NCBI GenBank assembly: GCA_000989305.1
Contig: LBTB01000004.1
Coordinates: 12,897-76,896 of the forward strand
DNA from: Candidatus Shapirobacteria bacterium GW2011_GWF2_37_20
Lineage (GTDB): Bacteria; Patescibacteriota; Microgenomatia; UBA12405
Length of the DNA: 64,000 nt
Reading direction: 5' to 3'
The notes under the pieces are model-generated. The model was not told the origin of the DNA. It made no database searches and saw only the letters and a program-made list of their open reading frames with translations. Below are positions 3,363-56,746 of this stretch, one piece after another. Made by a program: the position numbers and the translations under genes. The first letter of the stretch is position 1. Every line of letters begins with the position of its first letter.

Positions 3363-4574
3363 TTAACGGTCTTTTATGGTGACTGAAAAAAGGTTTTCTG
3401 GATTGTTCTTGGAAGTAGAGATGGAGATGATAAGACGATAACCATCCGGAGTGGGAAGAAGAATTTTTGGGGGAAGGTATTCAGTTGAGTAAACACTTTG
3501 GTAATTGGTGTGGTCGTATTCAACAACACCAATACTTTTGTCCTGAATGAAAACCAAATTATTAGAGTAGGGAATCCAGGATATTTGACTTATGGCGGTG
3601 TTACCAATAAGAAAGTTGGTATCATCTTTGAAATCATAAATGTAGTAGGAGTCTTTTTGAAGAGTGCGTTGTTGAGCTTGAGTGCTTTGGGTGGGAGGAG
3701 GAGTGATAAAGCGCTCAGAAAGCGTGGCACTTTCAGAGGCCTGGTACAAGATTTTGTCTTCGGAAGTGTTAAAAGCTAATACTGTTGAGTCAGTGGCAAT
3801 AACTGATTTAAGTTCGAGGGGGAGTTTTTCTAATTTGTTTTGAATAGTCTGTGATTGAATGTTTTGCCAATCTTTTTTTATTTGGGGTAGACGGGAGGAA
3901 ATATCAAACAGATTTTTTGAATCAAGAGTCTGGTCAAGAGAAATAAGATAGACATTGGGGTTGGTTTTCGAGGTGGCGAGAATTTGTTTGGAGTTGGGAG
4001 AGAATTCAAAGGAATATTTTGACCAATCAAGATAGGGGAGGTTGGGAGATAAAAATCTTTGAGTATTTTTACTCATAAGTAGAGGCAATTCAGTCAGTTC
4101 TAACAAATATAGCCCGTTTTCTTTGCTGGTGGCTGAAGTAGAAGCAACGGCATATATAATTTTTGTGGAATCAGGACTAACAACTGGATTGATAATTTTG
4201 CCTTGAGTAATTGGTTTTAAATCAAATGAGGAGCGAAATAGTTGAGCATCGGCCTGATAAACGAGTTCTGGCTTTATTTCGATATTTTTTTTCCAAGCAT
4301 AATAGCCATCTTTACTGATTTTTATTTGATAATTTCCAGGATTGAGGTTGAGGGTGTCGTCGGTGGCGGTGACTAATAGGTCGTCGACATATACACTGGC
4401 AGATTTTGGTTTAGAGGTAGCCGAGAGTAGGCCGGTAACCTTGAGCTTGAAACCATTGTTTGGGTCCAGGCGGTAACCTCTGGCAAAAATTGAAATAAAG
4501 AGGGTGGCACTGATGACAATGGAGGCCACCGAAAGAATTATTAGGAGACTTTTTCGGTTAGAATTTGAATGCAT
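3363..4574 (-). CDS. Membrane-anchored PEGA-domain / TolB-like beta-propeller protein
   Basis: N-terminal TM helix. PEGA-like segment YQIKISKDGYYAWKKNIEIKP. Repeated SPDS/SPNS propeller-like motifs. Confidence 0.6.
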   Translation of the reverse strand: MHSNSNRKSLLIILSVASIVISATLFISIFARGYRLDPNNGFKLKVTGLLSATSKPKSASVYVDDLLVTATDDTLNLNPGNYQIKISKDGYYAWKKNIEIKPELVYQADAQLFRSSFDLKPITQGKIINPVVSPDSTKIIYAVASTSATSKENGLYLLELTELPLLMSKNTQRFLSPNLPYLDWSKYSFEFSPNSKQILATSKTNPNVYLISLDQTLDSKNLFDISSRLPQIKKDWQNIQSQTIQNKLEKLPLELKSVIATDSTVLAFNTSEDKILYQASESATLSERFITPPPTQSTQAQQRTLQKDSYYIYDFKDDTNFLIGNTAISQISWIPYSNNLVFIQDKSIGVVEYDHTNYQSVYSTEYLPPKILLPTPDGYRLIISISTSKNNPENLFSVTIKDR

Positions 4575-4593: not shown

Positions 4594-5595
4594 ATGAGCT
4601 GGATAAGAAAGTTGGCAATAGATTTGGGGACTTCAAATTGTACTATTTGGGGCGAAAATGAAGGAATATTGTTAACTGAACCATCGGTAGTGGCAATTGA
4701 GGCTGAGGGTGGAAAGGTGCTGGCGGCCGGGAGTGAGGCGAAAAAAATGGAAGGAAAAACACCTGATTATATTGAGATTATTAAACCGATAGAATTTGGA
4801 GCGGTAGTGAACTATGAAGCGGCGGTGGGGATGCTAAGGTGGTTTTTAAGAGAAGTGATGGGTTCGGCGTGGTTGTTGGGGCCGGAAGTAATGGTGACGG
4901 TGGCGTCGGGATTGACCCAAGTTGAACAAAGAGCGGTGTTAGATGCGGTGTTGGAGGCTGGCGCAAGAAAAGTCTATTTAATTGATAGTCCGTTGGCGGC
5001 GGCAATTGGGGCAAAAATACCGATTTCAGAGCCATTTGGAAATATGGTGGTGAATATGGGGGGGGGAATAATTGAGGCGGCCGTGGTGGCTTCAGGAGGG
5101 GTGGTGGCTAGTAAATGTTTTCGTAGTGGAGGAAGTAGGTTAGATGAGTCACTTGAGGAATATTTAAAAAGAAAATATAGTTTAGCGGTGGGTGATCAGA
5201 CTGTAGAGCTGGTTAAGATTAAGCTGGGAACCGCAGTAAAGTTAAAAAAAACAGAAACGCTATCTATTAGTGGTCGGGATCTGGTTTATGGTTTACCAAA
5301 GAGCCTAGAATTAAACTCTGATGAAATATTTGAGGTAATCAGACCAATGCTTGACGAGGTGATACTGGTGGTGAGAGAGACACTGCAAGTGACACCTCCT
5401 GAATTAGTGGCGGATATTGCCGACAGGGGGATTGTATTAGTGGGGGCTGCATCAAAATTAAGAAACCTAGCATTGTTGTTAACGAGGGAAATTGGTGTAT
5501 CAGTACATCTGTCAATTGACTCGGAAACTTGTGTTATTAAGGGAGCAGGAATGGCAATGGAGAATTTGGAAACGTATCGTAAATCGGTAAGGTGA
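4594..5595 (+). CDS. mreB: Rod-shape determining actin homologue MreB
   Basis: IDLGTSNC phosphate-1 motif followed by EPSVVA. Full-length actin-fold ATPase. Start trimmed to the Met immediately before IDLGT. Confidence 0.85.
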   Translation: MSWIRKLAIDLGTSNCTIWGENEGILLTEPSVVAIEAEGGKVLAAGSEAKKMEGKTPDYIEIIKPIEFGAVVNYEAAVGMLRWFLREVMGSAWLLGPEVMVTVASGLTQVEQRAVLDAVLEAGARKVYLIDSPLAAAIGAKIPISEPFGNMVVNMGGGIIEAAVVASGGVVASKCFRSGGSRLDESLEEYLKRKYSLAVGDQTVELVKIKLGTAVKLKKTETLSISGRDLVYGLPKSLELNSDEIFEVIRPMLDEVILVVRETLQVTPPELVADIADRGIVLVGAASKLRNLALLLTREIGVSVHLSIDSETCVIKGAGMAMENLETYRKSVR

Positions 5596-15431: not shown

Positions 15432-15784
15432 TTATTTTAATTCAACGGTTGCACCAGCGGCTTCGAGTTTAGTCTTAGCTTCGGCAGCAGCGTCTTTTTT
15501 CATAGTGCTTTAGCTTCTTTCAAACCCAATTCTGGTTTGAATTCACGGACAGCTTTGATGACGGCGATTTTATTGGTGCCGGCGTTGGTAACGATGACAT
15601 CAAATTCGCTTTTTTCTTCAACAGCAGCAGCGGCAGGAGCACCGGCGGCAGCAGCGGCAGGAGCGGCGGACATGGCAACAGCTTTAACATCGAACTTTTC
15701 TTCTAGAGCTTTGACCAATTCGGAGAGTTCAAGCACCGAAAGTTGAGAGATTTGGTCGAGGATGGTTTCTAATTTTTTATCCAT
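15432..15784 (-). CDS. rplL: Ribosomal protein L7/L12, C-terminus interrupted by a frame discontinuity
   Basis: Main ORF 15500-15784 encodes NTD, Ala/Pro hinge and CTD up to GLKEAKAL, then hits TGA. The conserved end [22 protein letters not shown] is in another frame (15432-15503). About 13 aa of the CTD appear absent. Confidence 0.8.
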
Positions 15785-35947: not shown

Positions 35948-36002
35948 CAGTATCGATACACATCGATAAATGCTAATCTCTTTCTTCTTTCTTTCCTTGG
36001 CT

Positions 36003-36046
36003 CCCGTGGGAACTGTTCGCCTTTGGGGCTACTGGGTTCCCACGGG
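36003..36046. repeat. 11-bp perfect inverted repeat (CCCGTGGGAAC / GTTCCCACGGG) with 22-nt loop
   Basis: Seen directly. Lies 3' of the GC-rich gene 36070-37029 on the minus strand. Possible terminator or recombination site. Confidence 0.6.
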
Positions 36047-36069
36047 GGATTAGAGGTTTGGGGTGGCCG

Positions 36070-37029
36070 TTACGGCAGAATCACGATTCGGATGTCAGGT
36101 CTGGTTGCTAAGTAATCAGCGACCACTTTGACGTCCTTCAGACGATCGGCAACAGCCAGAGCCAAAGGGCCATGAATGTCGAAATTGCCGACTTTGATTT
36201 GATCGATAATTCGACCAAGGTCTTTGTCGCGATGCGGTATATCGTACCAGAGTACGACTTCGCCGTTGCGAATCCGAATTTGCTGTTCACCCTTGAGGTT
36301 GAAAAGGACGCCACCATTAAATATGGTATTGTTCATTTCGAACCCGTGGGAGAAAACAACAGCTTCAGTGTCGCAAGCGTTAAATCGGACGTCCAACCAG
36401 GTGTTTTCAACTGTCTGCAGTTCCAAATCGGACAACTCTTCGTTGTAGGCTTTGTTAGGAACTAACACAGAACGGTTGGTGAATGTCACCCTTTTGCCGA
36501 TATCGTAGACCGATTCGGTTTCAAGTGACAGACCAGCGTTTTCCCAAGTGACTCCATTGTCTTTAGAAACCTCGATGGTTTCGCAGGCAACGATGGGTGT
36601 TTCAACAACGGGTGCTTCGGTGGCAACAACAGGTACTTCTGTAGTGACGACTTCCGTAGCCTTAGGGGCTTCGGTAGCAACTACGATGGGCACTTCAGTT
36701 GAGCTAACAACTGGAGTTTCTGTGGCTGTGGGTGCAGTGGGAACAGTCCAGGGATGCCATAATAGCATTCCAAGAATAAACAGTCCCAGTAAAACCCACG
36801 GTAACCAACCCAAATTCCGTGAGGAATTGGTTTTTTGCTCTTTTGCGCGGTTTTCTGCGGCGATGCGATTTGCACGTCGTGTTTCTGCGCCTTTTATTCC
36901 TGCATCGTGCCGTTTCTTTTTTTGCTCAGCTTCTGTAGCCATTGTAAATCTCCTTTGATTCTTGAATAAAAACTTTTTTCTCTGATTTTCATCGGGTTCT
37001 TTGCCTGAACGGCCTCCATGACACGGCAT
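36070..37029 (-). CDS. GC-rich type II membrane protein with T/E/V/P-rich repeat linker
   Basis: Basic cytoplasmic N-terminus, TM helix, TEVPIVVATEAP-type repeats, and an about 170-aa C-terminal domain. Gene GC is visibly higher than its neighbours. An alternative start at 36945 gives MATEAEQ. Confidence 0.6.
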   Translation of the reverse strand: MPCHGGRSGKEPDENQRKKFLFKNQRRFTMATEAEQKKKRHDAGIKGAETRRANRIAAENRAKEQKTNSSRNLGWLPWVLLGLFILGMLLWHPWTVPTAPTATETPVVSSTEVPIVVATEAPKATEVVTTEVPVVATEAPVVETPIVACETIEVSKDNGVTWENAGLSLETESVYDIGKRVTFTNRSVLVPNKAYNEELSDLELQTVENTWLDVRFNACDTEAVVFSHGFEMNNTIFNGGVLFNLKGEQQIRIRNGEVVLWYDIPHRDKDLGRIIDQIKVGNFDIHGPLALAVADRLKDVKVVADYLATRPDIRIVILP

Positions 37030-44997: not shown

Positions 44998-45789
44998 TTA
45001 TTGATTAATCATTTTTAGTAACCTATCAATACCAAGGCCGATGCCTGATATGGTTTTTAGTTTAGCAGAATTGGTGGCAAAAGAGGTATCAATGGGGTGG
45101 AGTGGTAAAGAATTTTTAATCCGATATTCTTTTTCCCGATTAAAGGACTTTAGAATTGAATCTGGATCGGTGTTTTCAGTACAGCCATTAGCAATTTCAA
45201 TACCGTTAATATAAAGCTCAAAGCGTTGTCCCTTTTTTGCCAGAGGGCTGAGAAAAGCCGGATAGCCGGTAATAAAAACAGCTTTATCTTTAGGTAAATT
45301 AGGTTCGATTTTATTGAGAAAGTACTGATTGAAATCGGCTTCCTTGTCGGGTAGGTTTTGAGGGAGAACAAAGTTGGTGAACTCGATATCTAAATATTTT
45401 TTGATAAAATTTCGAGTGGAAAGCATTAAGTTTTGGTAATTTTTGTTGATTTCGTACCATTCCAACATTAAAAATTCCGGAGTATGGTTGGGACCTTCGT
45501 TTTCCAGATCGCGAAAACAATGGGAAATGGCAAAGCAGTTTTTTTGATTTTCAGATAGGAATTTTTTGAGGGCAAATTCCGGAGAGGTGGGGAGGTAATA
45601 GTTCACATTTTTATGAGTCCAGGTAGTTTTAAAGGAATAGAGATTTGCTTCGAGGGGGAGAGAGGGGTTGAGGTAAGGGATTTCAATCTCAGTAAAATCT
45701 AGGTTCCAGAGATATTGACGGATAGATTTTAGAAATTCAGATTGGGTCATAAGTTTTTTAACCCACAAAAATAATCTGGATCGGAACAA
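44998..45789 (-). CDS. Class II aminoacyl-tRNA-synthetase-like catalytic-core protein (EpmA/PoxA-like, no anticodon-binding domain)
   Basis: Motif 2 FRDLENEGPNHTPEFLMLEWY and motif 3 GIGLGIDRLLKM. Length 263 aa. Confidence 0.6.
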   Translation of the reverse strand: MFRSRLFLWVKKLMTQSEFLKSIRQYLWNLDFTEIEIPYLNPSLPLEANLYSFKTTWTHKNVNYYLPTSPEFALKKFLSENQKNCFAISHCFRDLENEGPNHTPEFLMLEWYEINKNYQNLMLSTRNFIKKYLDIEFTNFVLPQNLPDKEADFNQYFLNKIEPNLPKDKAVFITGYPAFLSPLAKKGQRFELYINGIEIANGCTENTDPDSILKSFNREKEYRIKNSLPLHPIDTSFATNSAKLKTISGIGLGIDRLLKMINQ

Positions 45790-46520
45790 AGAAGATTTTT
45801 TGAAGTGAGATCTAAAAAACGCTTGACAACTTTTTTGATTGGGTCGGAAATTGAAGCAATTGGCTTGACTGATTCACAACAGCCGTAAAATTTACCGTCT
45901 GATTGGAGGGAAAGCATGGAACAGCCAAAGTTTTTTGGTGGATAACATGGATAATTCTGACGAATATCTATAATTTGTTTTGAGGTTAGAGATCCAAGGC
46001 GGTCAGTAAGATAAGTTTTGGGAAGATTGTAAACCTGGAAAGAATCTTTATAAGGGTAAGAATCTTTGGTAATTAAGTAAAAAATTTCAACAGGAAAATT
46101 TAATTTTAAAGCGTGTTTTACAAATTTTTTAGATCTGGTAAAGTTGCCTGGTCCGCGATTAGCATCGTGGATATTTTGAGGTCCGTCAAAAGAGACAATC
46201 AATTGACAATTACGGGGATCCTTTATGTTTTTAAGTCTATCAATGGTGCCGTTGGTGATAATAGAGGTAAAAATACCCATTGAGTTTAGTTTGTTAATTA
46301 AAGAGGGAAAATTTTTGAGGGTAAAAACTTCACCGCCACAGAAGATTATAGATTTCAATTGACAGTTGCGAGTTGCGAGTTGTTGGTTGTATCTTCGAAC
46401 GAAGGAGAGAATCTGGGAATTGGAAAGGATATTTTTAGTTTTTTTGGTATAGCAATAGCGACAATTGAGATTACACAGTTCCAGTGGGGAGATATAGATG
46501 TTTTCGAGGGCGGAAATCAT
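45747..46520 (-). CDS. Radical SAM protein with C-terminal Cys-rich (SPASM/twitch-like) region
   Basis: CNLNCRYC at residues 16-23. C-terminal CGCCES and CSDPDYFCG. The 5' end overlaps the EpmA-like gene by 43 nt. Confidence 0.7.
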   Translation of the reverse strand: MISALENIYISPLELCNLNCRYCYTKKTKNILSNSQILSFVRRYNQQLATRNCQLKSIIFCGGEVFTLKNFPSLINKLNSMGIFTSIITNGTIDRLKNIKDPRNCQLIVSFDGPQNIHDANRGPGNFTRSKKFVKHALKLNFPVEIFYLITKDSYPYKDSFQVYNLPKTYLTDRLGSLTSKQIIDIRQNYPCYPPKNFGCSMLSLQSDGKFYGCCESVKPIASISDPIKKVVKRFLDLTSKNLLCSDPDYFCGLKNL

Positions 46521-46524
46521 GGCA

Positions 46525-46745
46525 GATTATAGCACTGTCTGATTATCGGTAGCTTTGGAGCGGATGGCGGGGGGTGATTGGTCTTCTTGGGAGATACTGT
46601 AGAGTTGCTCAGCAATGGTGGGTGAGGGGTGGCATGGACGACGAGGTTCAAAAGGGGGAATTAATCTGACGGGGGAAACGGTGTCAGCACAAAGGAGACA
46701 TTCCGTACTTCCGATTTGACACATAAATCAGTGTAGCATCAGAGA
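46525..46745 (+). ncRNA. GC-rich, G-run-rich island: candidate structured RNA of unknown family (strand uncertain). Alternative reading is a small Cys-containing minus-strand ORF.
   Basis: Local GC is far above the window background. G-runs GGCGGGGGG and GGTGGGTGAGGGGTGG. The overlapping track ORF 46527-46724(-) encodes a Pro/Arg/Ser-rich product, typical of spurious translation of RNA genes. Confidence 0.35.
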
Positions 46746-46746
46746 A

Positions 46747-46926
46747 TTATTTTAGTTTTGTTGACTCTTTGTGTTCGGTATTCTTTTTGCACCAATGACA
46801 ATATTTGTTGAATTTAAGTTTATCAGGGGTGTTGGTTTTGTTCTTTTCGGATAGATAATTTTGGGCACCACAAACGGAGCAACAAAGGGCGATTAAAATT
46901 CGAGGTGTTTTTTTAGATTTGGCCAT
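46747..46926 (-). CDS. rpmG: Ribosomal protein L33
   Basis: Hand translation gives MAKSKKTPRILIALCCSVCGAQNYLSEKNKTNTPDKLKFNKYCHWCKKNTEHKESTKLK, the L33 zinc-ribbon pattern. Length 59 aa, below the track length cutoff. Confidence 0.85.
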   Translation of the reverse strand: MAKSKKTPRILIALCCSVCGAQNYLSEKNKTNTPDKLKFNKYCHWCKKNTEHKESTKLK

Positions 46927-46961
46927 GGAGCTATTTTAATCGATGTAGCGGGAATTAGCAA

Positions 46962-47789
46962 TTAATTGATAAGTTGATTATCTAAAATGCTTTTGGCGAC
47001 CGTGTCGCAGAATAACTCACTACCAAGAGGGGAGGGGTGGAGATGATCGGTAGAACTAATAAGAAGTTCTGAGCCATTTTGACCAAAAAGACTGGGGTGA
47101 AAAGTATCGGCGAGGGCAAAGTTATTTTTGTTAGCAAAATTGACTAGATTTTGCAGATAAAGTTTAATGGTGTTGGTTTTTTCAATTTTTTGAAAAGCAG
47201 AGAAATGAACGTCCTTAATCCCGTTGCCAAAAGTAACAGAGTTGGGAGCAATGGTAGAGGCAAGAAGTATTTTGGTGTGGGGCGATTCCTTTTTAATGGT
47301 GCTGGTCAGTTTCTGAAGAGCCTGACTTTGACGGTCGATGCCGGCCTGAGAGTTGCCAAAATTATTGTAGGCAAAGGATTCGATGAGAATTATGTCTGCA
47401 TTTTGAGATAAAATCGACGGGTTGTTTTGACCCAGGTAGGAGGTTGTTTCAGTTAAACGTTTGAGGGCAGATTCGATATTAGTGGAACCATAGCCATATT
47501 TTAAGATGTTAAATTTGGTAAAAGGGAAATATTTTTGAAAGGATTGTTGACAGATATCTTTGGAAAGTGTGTCAATCATTGAATCACCCAAGAGTACCAG
47601 ATCGATTATATTGCCATCACCGCCAATAGGAGGGATATAAGAGGGAACAATAGTTTTTAGACCAAGAACATTTGGTTTGGGGGTGGGGGTGGTTTCGTTG
47701 ACAGATATTATTGGAGTAGAGGGAGTGTAGCTACTGGGGTGATAGGCCTGAAGCAATTGATAATAGAGGGGGAAGAAAAATAGGGGCAT
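46962..47789 (-). CDS. SGNH/GDSL hydrolase, secreted
   Basis: LVLLGDSMIDTL GDS(L) motif near the N-terminus of the mature domain. A signal-like N-terminus is present. Confidence 0.6.
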   Translation of the reverse strand: MPLFFFPLYYQLLQAYHPSSYTPSTPIISVNETTPTPKPNVLGLKTIVPSYIPPIGGDGNIIDLVLLGDSMIDTLSKDICQQSFQKYFPFTKFNILKYGYGSTNIESALKRLTETTSYLGQNNPSILSQNADIILIESFAYNNFGNSQAGIDRQSQALQKLTSTIKKESPHTKILLASTIAPNSVTFGNGIKDVHFSAFQKIEKTNTIKLYLQNLVNFANKNNFALADTFHPSLFGQNGSELLISSTDHLHPSPLGSELFCDTVAKSILDNQLIN

Positions 47790-48134: not shown

Positions 48135-48216
48135 GGAGGGTGGGCAGGACGGTAATGCGCTAGTTTTGAAAACTAGTGTCCGTAAGGACTAACAGGTTCA
48201 ACCCCTGTACCCTCCG
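48135..48216 (+). tRNA. tRNA-Ser (anticodon TGA), long variable arm
   Basis: GGAGGGT/ACCCTCC acceptor. 3-bp D stem. Anticodon loop TTTGAAA. Variable arm TGTCCGTAAGGACTA. G73 discriminator. Confidence 0.8.
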
Positions 48217-48245
48217 CTTTGGATTAAATATTTAAGAAAAATATT

Positions 48246-48449
48246 ATGCGAATTGAAACTTTGAAATGTCCGTTAAACACAAAAAATAATCACAGAGGTC
48301 CACTGATAAGTGAGGGAATATGTGGTTTTGGTTTGCATTACAGTGATGAAGCGCCCCATACAATAACAGCAGAGGATATAAGATTATTTGAAAAATTGGC
48401 ACCTTTACCAAAACCAGAAAGAAAAAGTAGAAAGGTAGAGAAAAAATGA
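48246..48449 (+). CDS. Hypothetical small protein between two tRNA genes
   Basis: ORF only. Confidence 0.3.
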   Translation: MRIETLKCPLNTKNNHRGPLISEGICGFGLHYSDEAPHTITAEDIRLFEKLAPLPKPERKSRKVEKK

Positions 48450-48521
48450 GCCCGGAATGAAATTCGAATTCATGACCTTCCCCTTACCAAGGGGATGCTC
48501 TACCAACTGAGCTATCCGGGC
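48449..48521 (-). tRNA. tRNA-Thr (anticodon GGT)
   Basis: GCCCGGA/TCCGGGC acceptor. Anticodon loop TTGGTAA. T-loop TTCGAAT. Confidence 0.8.
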
Positions 48522-56232: not shown

Positions 56233-56746
56233 GGTTAAGAAGGCTAGTAAGAAGCCCGGAGACAATTAGTAAGGCGATTAGAATAAAACCATAGTGTTCA
56301 AAGGCGGATTCGATCTTGATGGCGGTGTCGAGGGGTAAAAGATTAAGAAGGACCTTAGACCCATCAAGAGGGGGAATGGGAAAAAGATTGAAGATACCCA
56401 AATAGAGGTTGGTATAAGTCAAGATATAGGTAAGAGTGCCGGGAATACGAGAAAAGATGAAGGCTAAAAGAAAATTGCTGAGAGGGCCGGCCAGAGCAAC
56501 AATAATTTCGTCACGTCGAGGGTGGCGAAAATTATAAGGGTCAATAGGAACTGGTTTTCCCCAACCAAAACGAGCGACTAGGAGGATGAGAGTGCCTAAG
56601 GGGTCAAGGTGGGCCAGGGGATTTAAAGTTAAACGGCCGTAGGCTCTGGGGGTGGGATCACCCAGTTTGTCGGCGGCTAGAGCGTGACAAAATTCATGAA
56701 TAGTTATAGCGACTAGGAGTGAAATAAGAACGATGATATTTTCCAT
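56198..56746 (-). CDS. M50 (site-2 protease-like) zinc metalloprotease
   Basis: HEFCHALAA HExxH motif within a TM helix. Start trimmed to MENIIVL to avoid an antisense overlap with rpmB. Confidence 0.7.
   Translation of the reverse strand: MENIIVLISLLVAITIHEFCHALAADKLGDPTPRAYGRLTLNPLAHLDPLGTLILLVARFGWGKPVPIDPYNFRHPRRDEIIVALAGPLSNFLLAFIFSRIPGTLTYILTYTNLYLGIFNLFPIPPLDGSKVLLNLLPLDTAIKIESAFEHYGFILIALLIVSGLLTSLLNPIFSFGLRLLY

What the first reader, a model, noticed from the sequence alone, without database searches (positions are those of the whole stretch)
46521..46746. GC-rich, G-run-rich island between rpmG and a radical-SAM gene: unidentified structured RNA or RiPP-like precursor
This stretch has markedly higher GC than the surrounding AT-rich genes. 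It contains G-runs (GGCGGGGGG, GGTGGGTGAGGGGTGG) that could form G-quadruplexes or GU-rich helices. A 6-bp helix could close the 5' and 3' ends (CTGATT ... AATCAG). Structural RNAs are the usual cause of GC islands in AT-rich genomes. The minus-strand ORF called here (MCQIGSTECLLCADTVSP...) has the P/R/S-rich look of spurious translation. However, that ORF has 4 Cys, ends 6 nt before a radical-SAM/SPASM-type gene on the same strand, and starts 22 nt after rpmG. That layout would fit a RiPP precursor-maturase pair. I could not match the sequence by eye to SRP, tmRNA or a cobalamin riboswitch.
Basis: partly seen in the sequence, partly recalled or inferred. Interest (0 to 1): 0.62.

Follow-up and report, generated by a model that had tools for sequence, protein, structure and literature searches.

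The report
Small cysteine protein gene, not RNA
The GC-rich stretch between the L33 ribosomal protein gene and a radical-SAM gene is a real gene for a 65-residue, four-cysteine protein found in only a few Candidatus Shapirobacteria lineages; it is not a structured RNA, and its function is unknown.

Summary
GC is 0.50 against a window mean of 0.38, and the G-runs, the 6-nt inverted repeat and the ORF coordinates are as described.

The structured-RNA reading fails every test:
- no Rfam match;
- no folding energy beyond shuffles on either strand;
- no conserved or covarying structure across five lineages;
- no GC enrichment in two of the homologues.

The minus-strand ORF (46527-46724) is a real gene:
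- It stays open in the same slot in five diverged lineages, with only in-frame indels.
- Residues 1-43 have dN/dS of 0.13-0.57 with near-saturated synonymous sites.
- Invariant alignment columns by codon position are 16/21/7.
- Invariant residues include four Cys, PPF and TI(A/T)(E/Q)QLY.

The G-runs are the complement of CCC proline codons. The ORF has the genome's usual leaderless start signal, a -10-like box 5 nt before the ATG.

HMMER over 1.84 billion representative proteins finds only this protein and one relative, so it is an orphan family.

A RiPP precursor/maturase pair is unlikely. The rpmG-rSAM-epmA-like trio occurs in more than 100 loci, and only five lineages carry the ORF. The enzyme has no room for a recognition domain.

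Most likely it is a dispensable, possibly metal-binding mini-protein. Interest is modest.

The parts
46527..46724 (-). Small protein gene (65 codons plus TAA): MCQIGSTECLLCADTVSPVRLIPPFEPRRPCHPSPTIAEQLYSISQEDQSPPAIRSKATDNQTVL
   Evidence: The ORF is listed. Homologous open frames sit in the same slot in L001/L006, L043, L052 and L087. dN/dS and codon periodicity support coding. GenBank annotates it as hypothetical protein DD455_01675, Candidatus Shapirobacteria.
46596..46724 (-). Conserved N-terminal module, residues 1-43. It holds the invariant Cys2 (46719-46721), Cys9 (46698-46700), Cys12 (46689-46691) and Cys31 (46632-46634), PPF (46650-46658) and TIAEQLY (46599-46619).
   Evidence: Invariant columns come from alignment A5. 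dN/dS is 0.13-0.57 here, and PPF and TIAEQLY are kept through synonymous changes. AlphaFold predicts only a helix at residues 37-47, with mean pLDDT 60.
46530..46595 (-). Variable P/S/T/K-rich tail, residues 44-65. It contains the GGCGGGGGG run, which is the complement of the Pro51-Pro52-Ala53 codons.
   Evidence: Tail dN/dS is 0.4-1.2, and its length and sequence differ between lineages. Mapping of the G-runs onto codons is read.
46730..46738 (-). TGCTACACT, an extended -10-like box 5 nt upstream of the small ORF's ATG. It marks a putative leaderless promoter inside the 22-nt spacer after rpmG.
   Evidence: GTG(C/T)TACACTGAT is invariant in all five lineages and also present in L112. It is the only copy in the window. 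The genome-wide leaderless signature is shown.
46526..46534 (-). TGCTATAAT, an extended -10 consensus box 5 nt upstream of the rSAM ATG. It overlaps the last two codons and the stop of the small ORF (GTG CTA TAA).
   Evidence: Read. It is conserved in L001 and L043. One search lists a box 5 nt before the rSAM start.
45747..46520 (-). Radical-SAM gene (257 aa; CxxxCxxC at residues 16-23; Cys-rich C-terminus). This is context, not part of the island.
   Evidence: Pfam gives Radical_SAM at 9.7e-16. There are only weak core-only hits to peptide maturases in NCBIfam and to SkfB in the PDB. It is conserved in more than 100 loci.
46747..46926 (-). rpmG (ribosomal protein L33), the upstream neighbour.
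   Evidence: Pfam Ribosomal_L33 at 9e-17 and TIGR01023.
44998..45789 (-). EpmA/GenX-like class II lysyl-tRNA-synthetase paralogue. It overlaps the rSAM 3' end.
   Evidence: TIGR00462 genX scores 191.9 bits, below its cut-off of 286.9. Pfam tRNA-synt_2 also matches.

Best explanation
The island is the coding sequence of a small, lineage-restricted protein. It has 65 aa here and 56-81 aa in relatives.

Shown:
- The frame is conserved and under purifying selection over residues 1-43. These carry four invariant cysteines (C2, C9, C12, C31), an invariant PPF and a TI(A/T)(E/Q)QLY segment, followed by a freely evolving tail.
- The high GC and the plus-strand G-runs come from amino-acid composition. 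The Pro, Ser, Thr, Ala, Arg and Cys codons give GC of 0.56 and 0.52 at codon positions 1 and 2, and Pro is encoded as CCC.

Inferred from sequence signals:
- The gene is transcribed as a leaderless mRNA from a TGnTACACT box 5 nt before its ATG, as many genes in this genome appear to be.
- The downstream rSAM has its own TGnTATAAT box embedded in the small gene's last codons.

Inferred, weaker (about 0.4):
- The four cysteines bind a metal (Zn or an Fe-S centre).
- The mini-protein is a dispensable accessory of the rpmG/rSAM/EpmA-like translation-factor or ribosome-modification module, for example a partner or electron/metal donor for the rSAM.
- It was probably present in an ancestor of these Shapirobacteria and lost repeatedly.

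The confidence of 0.82 applies to the core claim: a functional protein-coding gene, not an RNA.
For: Open homologous frame:
- It is present in five diverged lineages, always between rpmG and the rSAM.
- Only in-frame indels occur.

Selection:
- dN/dS is 0.13-0.57 for residues 1-43 with dS near saturation. Window versus L001 differences by codon position are 20/13/28.
- Invariant columns by codon position are 16/21/7 of 46.
- Mean amino-acid identity is 0.47 in frame versus 0.31 and 0.27 in the shifted frames.
- There are 0 stops in frame versus 9 and 15 in the shifted frames.
- 16 residues are invariant, including M1, C2, C9, C12, P23, P24, F25 and T36-Y42.

Composition:
- GC by codon position is 0.56/0.52/0.45.
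- GC2 is high in all lineages (0.46-0.58), while GC3 follows each genome (0.12-0.45).

Start signals:
- The conserved TGYTACACT box lies 5 nt before the ATG.
- 29 of 70 long ORFs in the window carry TAnnnT 4-9 nt before the start, against 13% of all ATGs. SD-like sequences occur at only 7 of 70.

Independent occurrence:
- The L043-type protein (P0002) recurs unchanged on 13 contigs from several samples.
Against: - There is no expression data.
- In the window alone, an open frame of this length is not significant (shuffle P = 0.38 for any of six frames).
- The protein has no homologue beyond its own small family and no Pfam, NCBIfam or PDB match.
- AlphaFold confidence is low (mean pLDDT 60), so the metal-binding fold is unproven.
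- Only one CxxC pair is present in four of the five lineages.
- Close relatives with an identical L33 protein lack the gene (L003-L005), so it is dispensable.
- The codon alignment was built from the protein alignment, which slightly favours frame 0. The DNA-level MAFFT alignment agrees over the N-terminal part.
Confidence: 0.82

Rival explanations
1. RiPP-type pair. The small ORF is a ribosomally made precursor, and its cysteines are cross-linked (sacti- or ranthipeptide-like thioethers) by the adjacent radical-SAM enzyme.
For: - The ORF is on the same strand, 6 nt upstream of the rSAM.
- Four Cys are conserved across five lineages.
- In L087 the ORF stop overlaps the rSAM GTG start (GTGA).
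- The best, though weak and core-only, matches of the rSAM are sactipeptide-type maturases: GggB and StsB in NCBIfam and SkfB in the PDB.
- The rSAM C-terminus carries five invariant Cys, with a C-x8-G-x4-C stretch resembling the first SPASM/twitch motif (motif comparison from memory).
Against: - The rSAM sits next to rpmG (and, in most loci long enough to show it, an EpmA-like gene) in more than 100 loci. The ORF occurs in five lineages out of 96 distinct rSAM sequences, scattered through the tree.
- Relatives with an identical L33 protein lack the ORF.
- The rSAM is only 257 aa and its CxxxCxxC motif starts at residue 16. That leaves no room for an RRE/PqqD-like recognition domain, and none is encoded nearby.
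- NCBIfam maturase scores are 40-53 bits against cut-offs of 400-650, and there is no Pfam SPASM hit.
- No known precursor family matches the ORF.
- Conservation lies in the N-terminal 43 residues, and the C-terminus is variable.
- There is no protease or exporter among the neighbours, which are hpf, a GDSL hydrolase, rpmG, an EpmA-like gene and a GGDEF gene.
Confidence: 0.1
2. Regulatory upstream ORF. Translation through the invariant Pro-Pro-Phe motif depends on EF-P. The small ORF would therefore report EF-P activity and tune expression of the downstream rSAM/EpmA-like (EF-P modification-type) genes by translational or transcription-translation coupling.
For: - PPF is invariant in all five lineages, kept through synonymous changes.
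- The ORF sits immediately upstream of an EpmA/GenX-like gene cluster.
- Stop/start overlap or proximity to the rSAM start is seen in L087 and in the window.
- There is precedent that polyproline translation and EF-P control downstream transcription (PMC5021804).
Against: - The geometry is not conserved. The ORF stop is 6-7 nt before the rSAM start in three lineages, overlaps it by 4 nt in L087 (GTGA), and runs about 97 nt into the rSAM in L052.
- In three lineages the rSAM has its own consensus -10 box inside the ORF's end, so it need not depend on ORF translation.
- No alternative or terminator structure is present.
- The invariant cysteines and 43 conserved residues are not explained by a stall sensor.
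- Coupling would give positive rather than homeostatic feedback (inference).
- Whether PPF is a strong EF-P-dependent motif was not checked.
Confidence: 0.06
3. Structured non-coding RNA or G-quadruplex element, as in the first reader's main reading.
For: GC is 0.50 in a 0.38 genome, and several G-runs lie on the plus strand. An invariant ACAC/GTGT 4-5 bp hairpin surrounds the start codon.
Against: - No Rfam family matches at gathering score in the whole window apart from tRNAs. Only noise appears at E<=10 in 46300-47000. ARAGORN finds no tRNA or tmRNA here.
- MFE z-scores are +0.81 (minus strand) and +0.24 (plus strand).
- The consensus fold covers 12 and 4 pairs at the 5' end only, with a covariation term of +1.56 and 0.
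- GC is at genome level in the L043 (0.35) and L087 (0.36) homologues.
- The substitution pattern has codon periodicity.
- There is no canonical G4 motif, and the G-runs are the complement of CCC Pro codons that relatives write as CCA or CCT.
Confidence: 0.02

Closest known systems
Radical-SAM RiPP precursor/maturase pairs (sactipeptides such as SkfA/SkfB or subtilosin/AlbA; SCIFF/ranthipeptides)
   Same: A small Cys-containing ORF lies directly upstream, on the same strand, of a radical-SAM gene with a Cys-rich C-terminal region. The weak best hits of the enzyme are to this class.
   Different: - The enzyme is 257 aa with no recognition (RRE) domain.
- Scores are far below family cut-offs.
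- Enzyme and ORF do not co-occur in most genomes.
- The enzyme's conserved partners are rpmG and an EpmA-like ligase.
- The peptide's conserved part is N-terminal and its C-terminus is variable.
- No protease or exporter is present.
Small Cys4 zinc-ribbon/zinc-knuckle proteins (for example L33 itself, or Pfam Zn_ribbon_9)
   Same: It is about 60 aa with four invariant cysteines including a CxxC. The L087 homologue has two CxxC pairs. One member gives a marginal Zn_ribbon_9 hit at E = 0.049.
   Different: - There is no significant profile match to any zinc-ribbon family or to L33.
- The spacing C-x6/7-C-x2-C-x17/18-C is not the classical two-knuckle pattern.
- AlphaFold does not give a confident fold.
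Proline-containing leader ORFs and EF-P-dependent transcription-translation coupling (Elgamal, Artsimovitch and Ibba 2016, PMC5021804; Salmonella mgtP, from memory)
   Same: A short ORF with an invariant Pro-Pro motif lies upstream of genes related to EF-P modification.
   Different: The ORF is 56-81 aa with a conserved Cys module. Its distance to the downstream start is variable, no terminator or alternative structure is present, and the downstream gene has its own promoter-like box.
Leaderless bacterial genes with a -10 box just upstream of the start codon (well known in Actinobacteria and Deinococcus-Thermus; from established knowledge)
   Same: TGnTACACT ends 5 nt before the ATG with no Shine-Dalgarno sequence. 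The same layout occurs at 29 of 70 long ORFs in this window.
   Different: Transcription starts were not mapped. The box here is TACACT rather than the TATAAT-like boxes of most other genes in the window, yet it is invariant across lineages.

Membership tests
Any described structured RNA family (Rfam 15) | Covariance-model match at or above the family's gathering score | tested here: not met
   Across the whole window only 7 tRNAs match. In 46300-47000 at E<=10 there are only two noise hits, at 15.7 and 10.2 bits against cut-offs of 90 and 279.
Structured non-coding RNA (generic) | Folding energy clearly below that of dinucleotide shuffles | tested here: not met
   z = +0.81 on the minus strand and +0.24 on the plus strand.
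Structured non-coding RNA (generic) | Secondary structure conserved among homologues, with compensatory changes | tested here: not met
   RNAalifold on five lineages, both strands, finds only a short 5' hairpin with invariant pairs. The covariation term is +1.56 and 0, and the body is unpaired.
G-quadruplex element | Four G3+ runs with short loops, conserved in homologues | tested here: not met
   There is no canonical motif, only long-loop or two-tetrad matches. The G-runs are absent in the L043 and L087 homologues.
Protein-coding gene | Homologous frame open in diverged relatives, with indels in multiples of three | tested here: met
   Five lineages are open in frame, with 0 stops in frame against 9 and 15 in the shifted frames. 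A 6-nt indel separates the window from L001.
Protein-coding gene | Codon-position periodicity of substitutions and dN/dS below 1 | tested here: met
   Invariant columns by codon position are 16/21/7. dN/dS is 0.13-0.57 over residues 1-43.
Protein-coding gene | Start signal typical of the genome | tested here: met
   A -10-like box lies 5 nt before the ATG, as at 29 of 70 long ORFs against 13% of all ATGs. The box is invariant across lineages.
Protein-coding gene | Evidence of transcription and translation | not testable with these tools
   No RNA-seq, ribosome profiling or proteomics data were available.
Radical-SAM RiPP precursor/maturase pair | Small precursor ORF adjacent to the maturase gene and on the same strand | tested here: met
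   The ORF ends 6 nt before the rSAM ATG.
Radical-SAM RiPP precursor/maturase pair | Precursor and maturase co-occur across genomes | tested here: not met
   The ORF is in 5 lineages. The rSAM is in more than 100 loci (96 distinct sequences), mostly abutting rpmG directly.
Radical-SAM RiPP precursor/maturase pair | Peptide-recognition (RRE/PqqD-like) domain in the maturase or a neighbouring gene | tested here: not met
   Pfam finds only Radical_SAM and Fer4_12. CxxxCxxC starts at residue 16. No neighbour has such a domain.
Radical-SAM RiPP precursor/maturase pair | SPASM/twitch auxiliary-cluster domain in the enzyme | tested here: inconclusive
   There is no Pfam SPASM hit at E<=0.1. Five C-terminal Cys are invariant, with a C-x8-G-x4-C stretch.
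Radical-SAM RiPP precursor/maturase pair | Membership of the enzyme or peptide in a curated RiPP family | tested here: not met
   Enzyme hits are 40-53 bits against cut-offs of 400-650, and they cover the core only. The peptide matches no NCBIfam family, and its only Pfam match is the marginal Zn_ribbon_9 hit (E = 0.049) in one member.
Cys4 zinc-ribbon-type mini-protein | Four conserved metal-ligand cysteines | tested here: met
   C2, C9 and C12 are invariant. C31 is present in all five lineages (shifted by one position in L052), and L087 has an extra Cys.
Cys4 zinc-ribbon-type mini-protein | Significant profile match or confident predicted fold of that type | tested here: not met
   The best result is Zn_ribbon_9 at E = 0.049 in one member. 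The PDB profile search gives only chance hits. AlphaFold mean pLDDT is 60.
Cys4 zinc-ribbon-type mini-protein | Metal actually bound | not testable with these tools
   This needs purified protein and metal analysis.
Regulatory leader ORF (stall or attenuation type) | Fixed geometry between the ORF, a regulatory RNA structure and the downstream start | tested here: not met
   The stop position relative to the rSAM start varies, from 6-7 nt before it to about 97 nt past it. No terminator or alternative fold is found.

The most novel reading that the evidence does not exclude
The mini-protein is a substrate of the adjacent minimal (257-aa, RRE-less) radical-SAM enzyme. That enzyme's main, ancestral client would be another small Cys4 protein encoded directly upstream in most genomes (L33), or EF-P. 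This would make the locus a CPR-specific protein and ribosomal-protein cross-linking or modification system that has picked up a second, RiPP-like client in a few lineages. The possible one-nucleotide frame relation between the small ORF and the rSAM in L052, at an A5 run, would then be a fusion hint.
Probability: 0.08. Interest if true: 0.7.

Novelty: new member of a known kind. Interest (0 to 1): 0.27.

Why it matters
The result corrects a plausible misreading. In this AT-rich Candidatus Shapirobacteria genome, a GC- and G-run-rich patch is not an RNA. It is a proline- and cysteine-rich small gene, one that gene callers left uncalled in at least one of the five lineages (L001).

It adds a small orphan family with a clear Cys4 signature, attached to a widely conserved but uncharacterised rpmG / radical-SAM / EpmA-like module in Patescibacteria. 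That module, and the genome's leaderless start signals, are probably of more general interest than the island itself.

If the mini-protein proves to be a partner or substrate of the radical-SAM enzyme, it would give a handle on what the module does.

Tried and rejected
- **Rfam:** searched at gathering score over the whole window and at E<=10 locally. Nothing was found.
- **ARAGORN:** no tRNA or tmRNA in the island.
- **Single-sequence folds:** both strands show no excess stability.
- **Promoter/terminator scan:** no terminator in or next to the island.
- **Island copies in the window:** none, so it is not a repeat or mobile element here.
- **Peptide-pattern scan of metagenome contigs:** 81 pattern matches, none confirmed.
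- **Profile searches for homologues:** only P0001 and P0002 were found among 5.8 billion proteins (word-indexed) and 1.84 billion representatives (exhaustive HMMER).
- **Pfam, NCBIfam and PDB profile searches on the five peptides:** only chance-level hits.
- **Profile-profile comparison with L33, the rSAM, and the other slot ORFs of L112 and L043:** no relationship.
- **AlphaFold on the two-sequence alignment:** mean pLDDT 60. No fold search was run because matches would be meaningless.
- **Open-frame shuffle test on single sequences:** not significant alone (P = 0.08-0.38). The coding argument therefore rests on comparative evidence.
- **efp in the window:** looked for in order to judge the EF-P idea. 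None was found.
- **Literature:** a search for a known radical-SAM/EpmA pairing in Patescibacteria found nothing relevant. A search for leaderless starts in CPR found nothing directly usable.
Full report
**1. What is in the sequence**

The stretch 46521-46746 lies between rpmG and a radical-SAM (rSAM) gene.
- rpmG (46747-46926, minus strand) matches Pfam Ribosomal_L33 at 9e-17.
- The rSAM gene (45747-46520, minus strand, 257 aa) matches Pfam Radical_SAM at 9.7e-16.
- The rSAM overlaps an EpmA/GenX-like gene (44998-45789) and is followed by a GGDEF gene.

- GC is 0.50 against a window mean of 0.381 (sd 0.046 for 226-nt stretches). Only 1.25% of stretches are as high, though four other places are equally rich.
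- A 6-nt complementary pair is expected several times by chance in 226 nt (my arithmetic). Neither predicted fold uses it.
- The 65-codon minus-strand ORF (46527-46724) starts 22 nt after rpmG and ends 6 nt before the rSAM, as stated.

**2. The RNA reading**

Every test of a structured RNA is negative.
- Rfam finds only seven tRNAs in the window at gathering score. Only noise appears in 46300-47000 at E<=10. ARAGORN finds nothing here.
- The folds are no more stable than dinucleotide shuffles: z = +0.81 on the gene strand and +0.24 on the G-rich strand.
- With homologues from four other lineages, RNAalifold predicts only a short invariant ACAC/GTGT hairpin around the start codon. Nothing is paired over the remaining ~200 nt, and there is no supporting covariation.
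- GC enrichment is not a property of the element. The L043 and L087 homologues have GC of 0.35 and 0.36, equal to their genomes.
- There is no canonical G-quadruplex motif.

**3. Relatives and the indel**

The window is 99.8% identical to GCA_003508875.1 (DODT01000014.1), a Candidatus Shapirobacteria MAG, which annotates the ORF as hypothetical protein DD455_01675.

Contigs encoding the identical L33 protein fall into two kinds.
- L001 and L006 carry the island at about 77% nucleotide identity.
- L003, L004 and L005 lack it. There the rpmG stop is followed within 10-45 nt by the rSAM start.

Scans with the rSAM protein returned 32 species-representative genome loci and 80 metagenome loci.
- Nearly all of the loci long enough to show it carry the order rpmG, rSAM, EpmA-like gene; four (L036, L038, L039, L041) lack rpmG upstream, and in three of them the EpmA-like gene lies upstream on the opposite strand.
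- The rpmG-to-rSAM gap is usually 0-85 nt. In several the stop abuts or overlaps the start, for example TAATG in L070.

A homologue of the small ORF is present only in five lineages: the window lineage, L001/L006, L043 (equivalent to L123-L128), L052 and L087. It is always in this slot.

**4. The ORF is a gene**

In a single sequence the open frame proves nothing. The shuffle probability of an equally long open frame in any of six frames is 0.38 for the window. The comparative evidence is what counts.
- The same frame is open in all five lineages.
- Indels are multiples of three, including a 6-nt indel between the window and L001.
- The two shifted frames carry 9 and 15 stops across the five sequences.
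- Over residues 1-43, dN/dS is 0.13-0.57 while synonymous sites are near saturation.
- Invariant alignment columns by codon position are 16, 21 and 7 of 46.
- Mean amino-acid identity is 0.47 in frame, against 0.31 and 0.27 out of frame.
- PPF is written CCCCCTTTT, CCCCCCTTC, CCACCTTTT, CCACCATTT and CCACCCTTC in the five lineages. TIAEQLY is likewise kept through many synonymous changes.

The invariant residues are M1, C2, C9, L10, C12, P18, L21, P23, P24, F25, P30, T36, I37, Q40, L41 and Y42. A fourth Cys lies near position 31 in every lineage. After residue 43 the tail varies in length and sequence, with dN/dS of 0.4-1.2.

**5. Why it looks GC- and G-rich**

- GC by codon position is 0.56/0.52/0.45. 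The neighbouring genes have 0.24-0.45.
- GC at the second codon position is high in all five lineages (0.46-0.58), while third-position GC follows each genome (0.12-0.45). The enrichment therefore comes mainly from composition: 9 Pro, 7 Ser, 5 Thr and 4 Cys in 65 residues.
GGCGGGGGG corresponds to Pro51-Pro52-Ala53. GGTGGGTGAGGGGTGG corresponds to (Cys31)-His-Pro-Ser-Pro-Thr36 (read).
- Relatives write these prolines as CCA or CCT.

**6. Expression signals (inferred)**

- All five lineages have GTG(C/T)TACACTGAT(T/C)(T/C)ATG. This is an extended -10-like box ending 5 nt before the start codon, with no Shine-Dalgarno sequence. It is the only TGYTACACT in the window.
- This layout is the norm in the genome. 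29 of 70 long ORFs have TAnnnT 4-9 nt before their start, against 13% of all ATGs. Only 7 have an SD-like sequence. It points to leaderless mRNAs.
- In the window, L001 and L043, the last codons of the small ORF (GTG CTA TAA) form a consensus TGnTATAAT box 5-6 nt before the rSAM ATG. This also explains why the terminal Val-Leu is conserved in those three.
- In L087 the ORF stop overlaps a GTG start of the rSAM. In L052 the ORF runs on into the rSAM in another frame.
- The link to the rSAM is therefore close, but its geometry is not fixed.

**7. What the protein is**

It is an orphan.
- The word-indexed search of 5.8 billion proteins, with the single sequence and with the five-sequence profile, finds only P0001 (this protein) and P0002 (the L043 form).
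- An exhaustive HMMER search of 1.84 billion representatives finds the same two.
- P0002 is seen unchanged on 13 contigs.
- Pfam, NCBIfam and the PDB give nothing beyond chance, apart from a marginal Zn_ribbon_9 hit at E = 0.049 in one member.
- It is unrelated to L33 or to the rSAM.
- AlphaFold gives mean pLDDT 60, with one helix at residues 37-47.

On an rSAM tree the ORF-bearing lineages are interleaved with ORF-less ones, and L087 sits in a distant clade. Peptide divergence roughly follows rSAM divergence: 58, 53, 40 and 36% identity against 74.5, 78, 67.5 and 60.6%. An old gene lost many times is the simplest history. Transfer between relatives by recombination in the conserved flanks cannot be excluded.

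**8. Mechanism**

- Shown: a conserved, selected small protein with four invariant cysteines.
- Inferred from sequence signals: leaderless expression from its own promoter-like box.
- Inferred, weaker: the Cys module binds a metal, and the protein is a dispensable accessory to the neighbouring rSAM/EpmA-like module.

The RiPP reading has points in its favour: adjacency, conserved Cys, and weak similarity of the enzyme core to sactipeptide maturases such as SkfB. Several points count against it.
- Enzyme and ORF do not co-occur in most genomes.
- The enzyme has no recognition domain.
- Its conserved partners are rpmG and an EpmA-like ligase.
- No known precursor family matches the ORF.
- No protease or exporter is nearby.

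A Pro-Pro stall sensor upstream of EF-P-modification-type genes is an attractive idea with precedent for EF-P-dependent coupling (PMC5021804). It does not fit three observations: the variable geometry, the rSAM's own promoter box, and the lack of any RNA switch.

**9. Verdict**

- The RNA interpretation is rejected.
- The ORF is real, but probably not a RiPP precursor.
- The finding is a new small orphan family of a familiar kind, a short cysteine-containing protein, of modest interest.

The conserved rpmG/rSAM/EpmA-like module and the leaderless start signals, both noticed in passing, may deserve more attention than the island.

Noticed in passing
window 44998-46926 (minus strand); loci L011-L122: The order rpmG, then a ~250-aa radical-SAM gene, then an EpmA/GenX-like ligase is conserved in more than 100 Patescibacteria/Shapirobacteria loci. 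The rpmG stop often abuts or overlaps the rSAM start, for example TAATG in L070. The rSAM shows no lysine-2,3-aminomutase (EpmB) signature. This could be a non-canonical EF-P or ribosomal-protein modification module.
   Followed up: partly
whole window, e.g. starts at 4574(-), 7789(+), 9066(+), 13371(+), 35034(-), 46520(-), 46926(-): The genome has a leaderless-type start signature. A TAnnnT box lies 4-9 nt (mostly 5-7) upstream of 29 of 70 long ORFs, against 13% of all ATGs. SD-like sequences occur at only 7 of 70.
   Followed up: partly
L065 2199-2429; L112 2805-3011; L043 2526-2765; L054 2875-3000: The rpmG-rSAM slot holds other, unrelated fillers in other lineages:
- L065 has a 77-aa ORF with GC 0.53 in a 0.41 locus.
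- L112 has a 68-aa GTG-start ORF behind the same GTGCTACACT box.
- L043 has an extra 79-aa four-Cys ORF.
- L054 has a 127-nt spacer of 8% GC.

The two that were compared, the L112 ORF and the extra L043 ORF, are not homologous to the island ORF by hhalign.
   Followed up: partly
L052 2849-3097: Here the small ORF has no stop before the rSAM and continues about 97 nt into it in another frame. An A5 run (CGAAAAATC) lies at the junction, so a one-base shift would fuse the two proteins. This could be real overlap, a frameshift or an assembly error.
   Followed up: no
window 46722-46737 and homologues: An invariant small inverted repeat, ACAC-N8-GTGT, spans the -10-like box and the Met-Cys codons. 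It is conserved in all five lineages with no covariation. It may simply reflect the promoter plus coding constraint, or it may be an operator.
   Followed up: no
L011, L013, L015, L016, L019 and others: Many species-representative records carrying this Shapirobacteria-type locus are titled 'uncultured Gammaproteobacteria bacterium', and one is titled 'Candidatus Methanoperedens sp.'. These titles look like mislabelling or bin contamination.
   Followed up: no
window ~35950-36600, 4790-4900, 56450-56700, 15450-15680: These 226-nt stretches are as GC-rich as the island (0.51-0.53). Most seem to lie inside long ORFs. They were not examined.
   Followed up: no
window 48135-48217 (+) and 48448-48521 (-): tRNA-Ser(TGA) and tRNA-Thr(GGT) flank a short region just upstream of the hpf-GDSL-rpmG gene string.
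   Followed up: no
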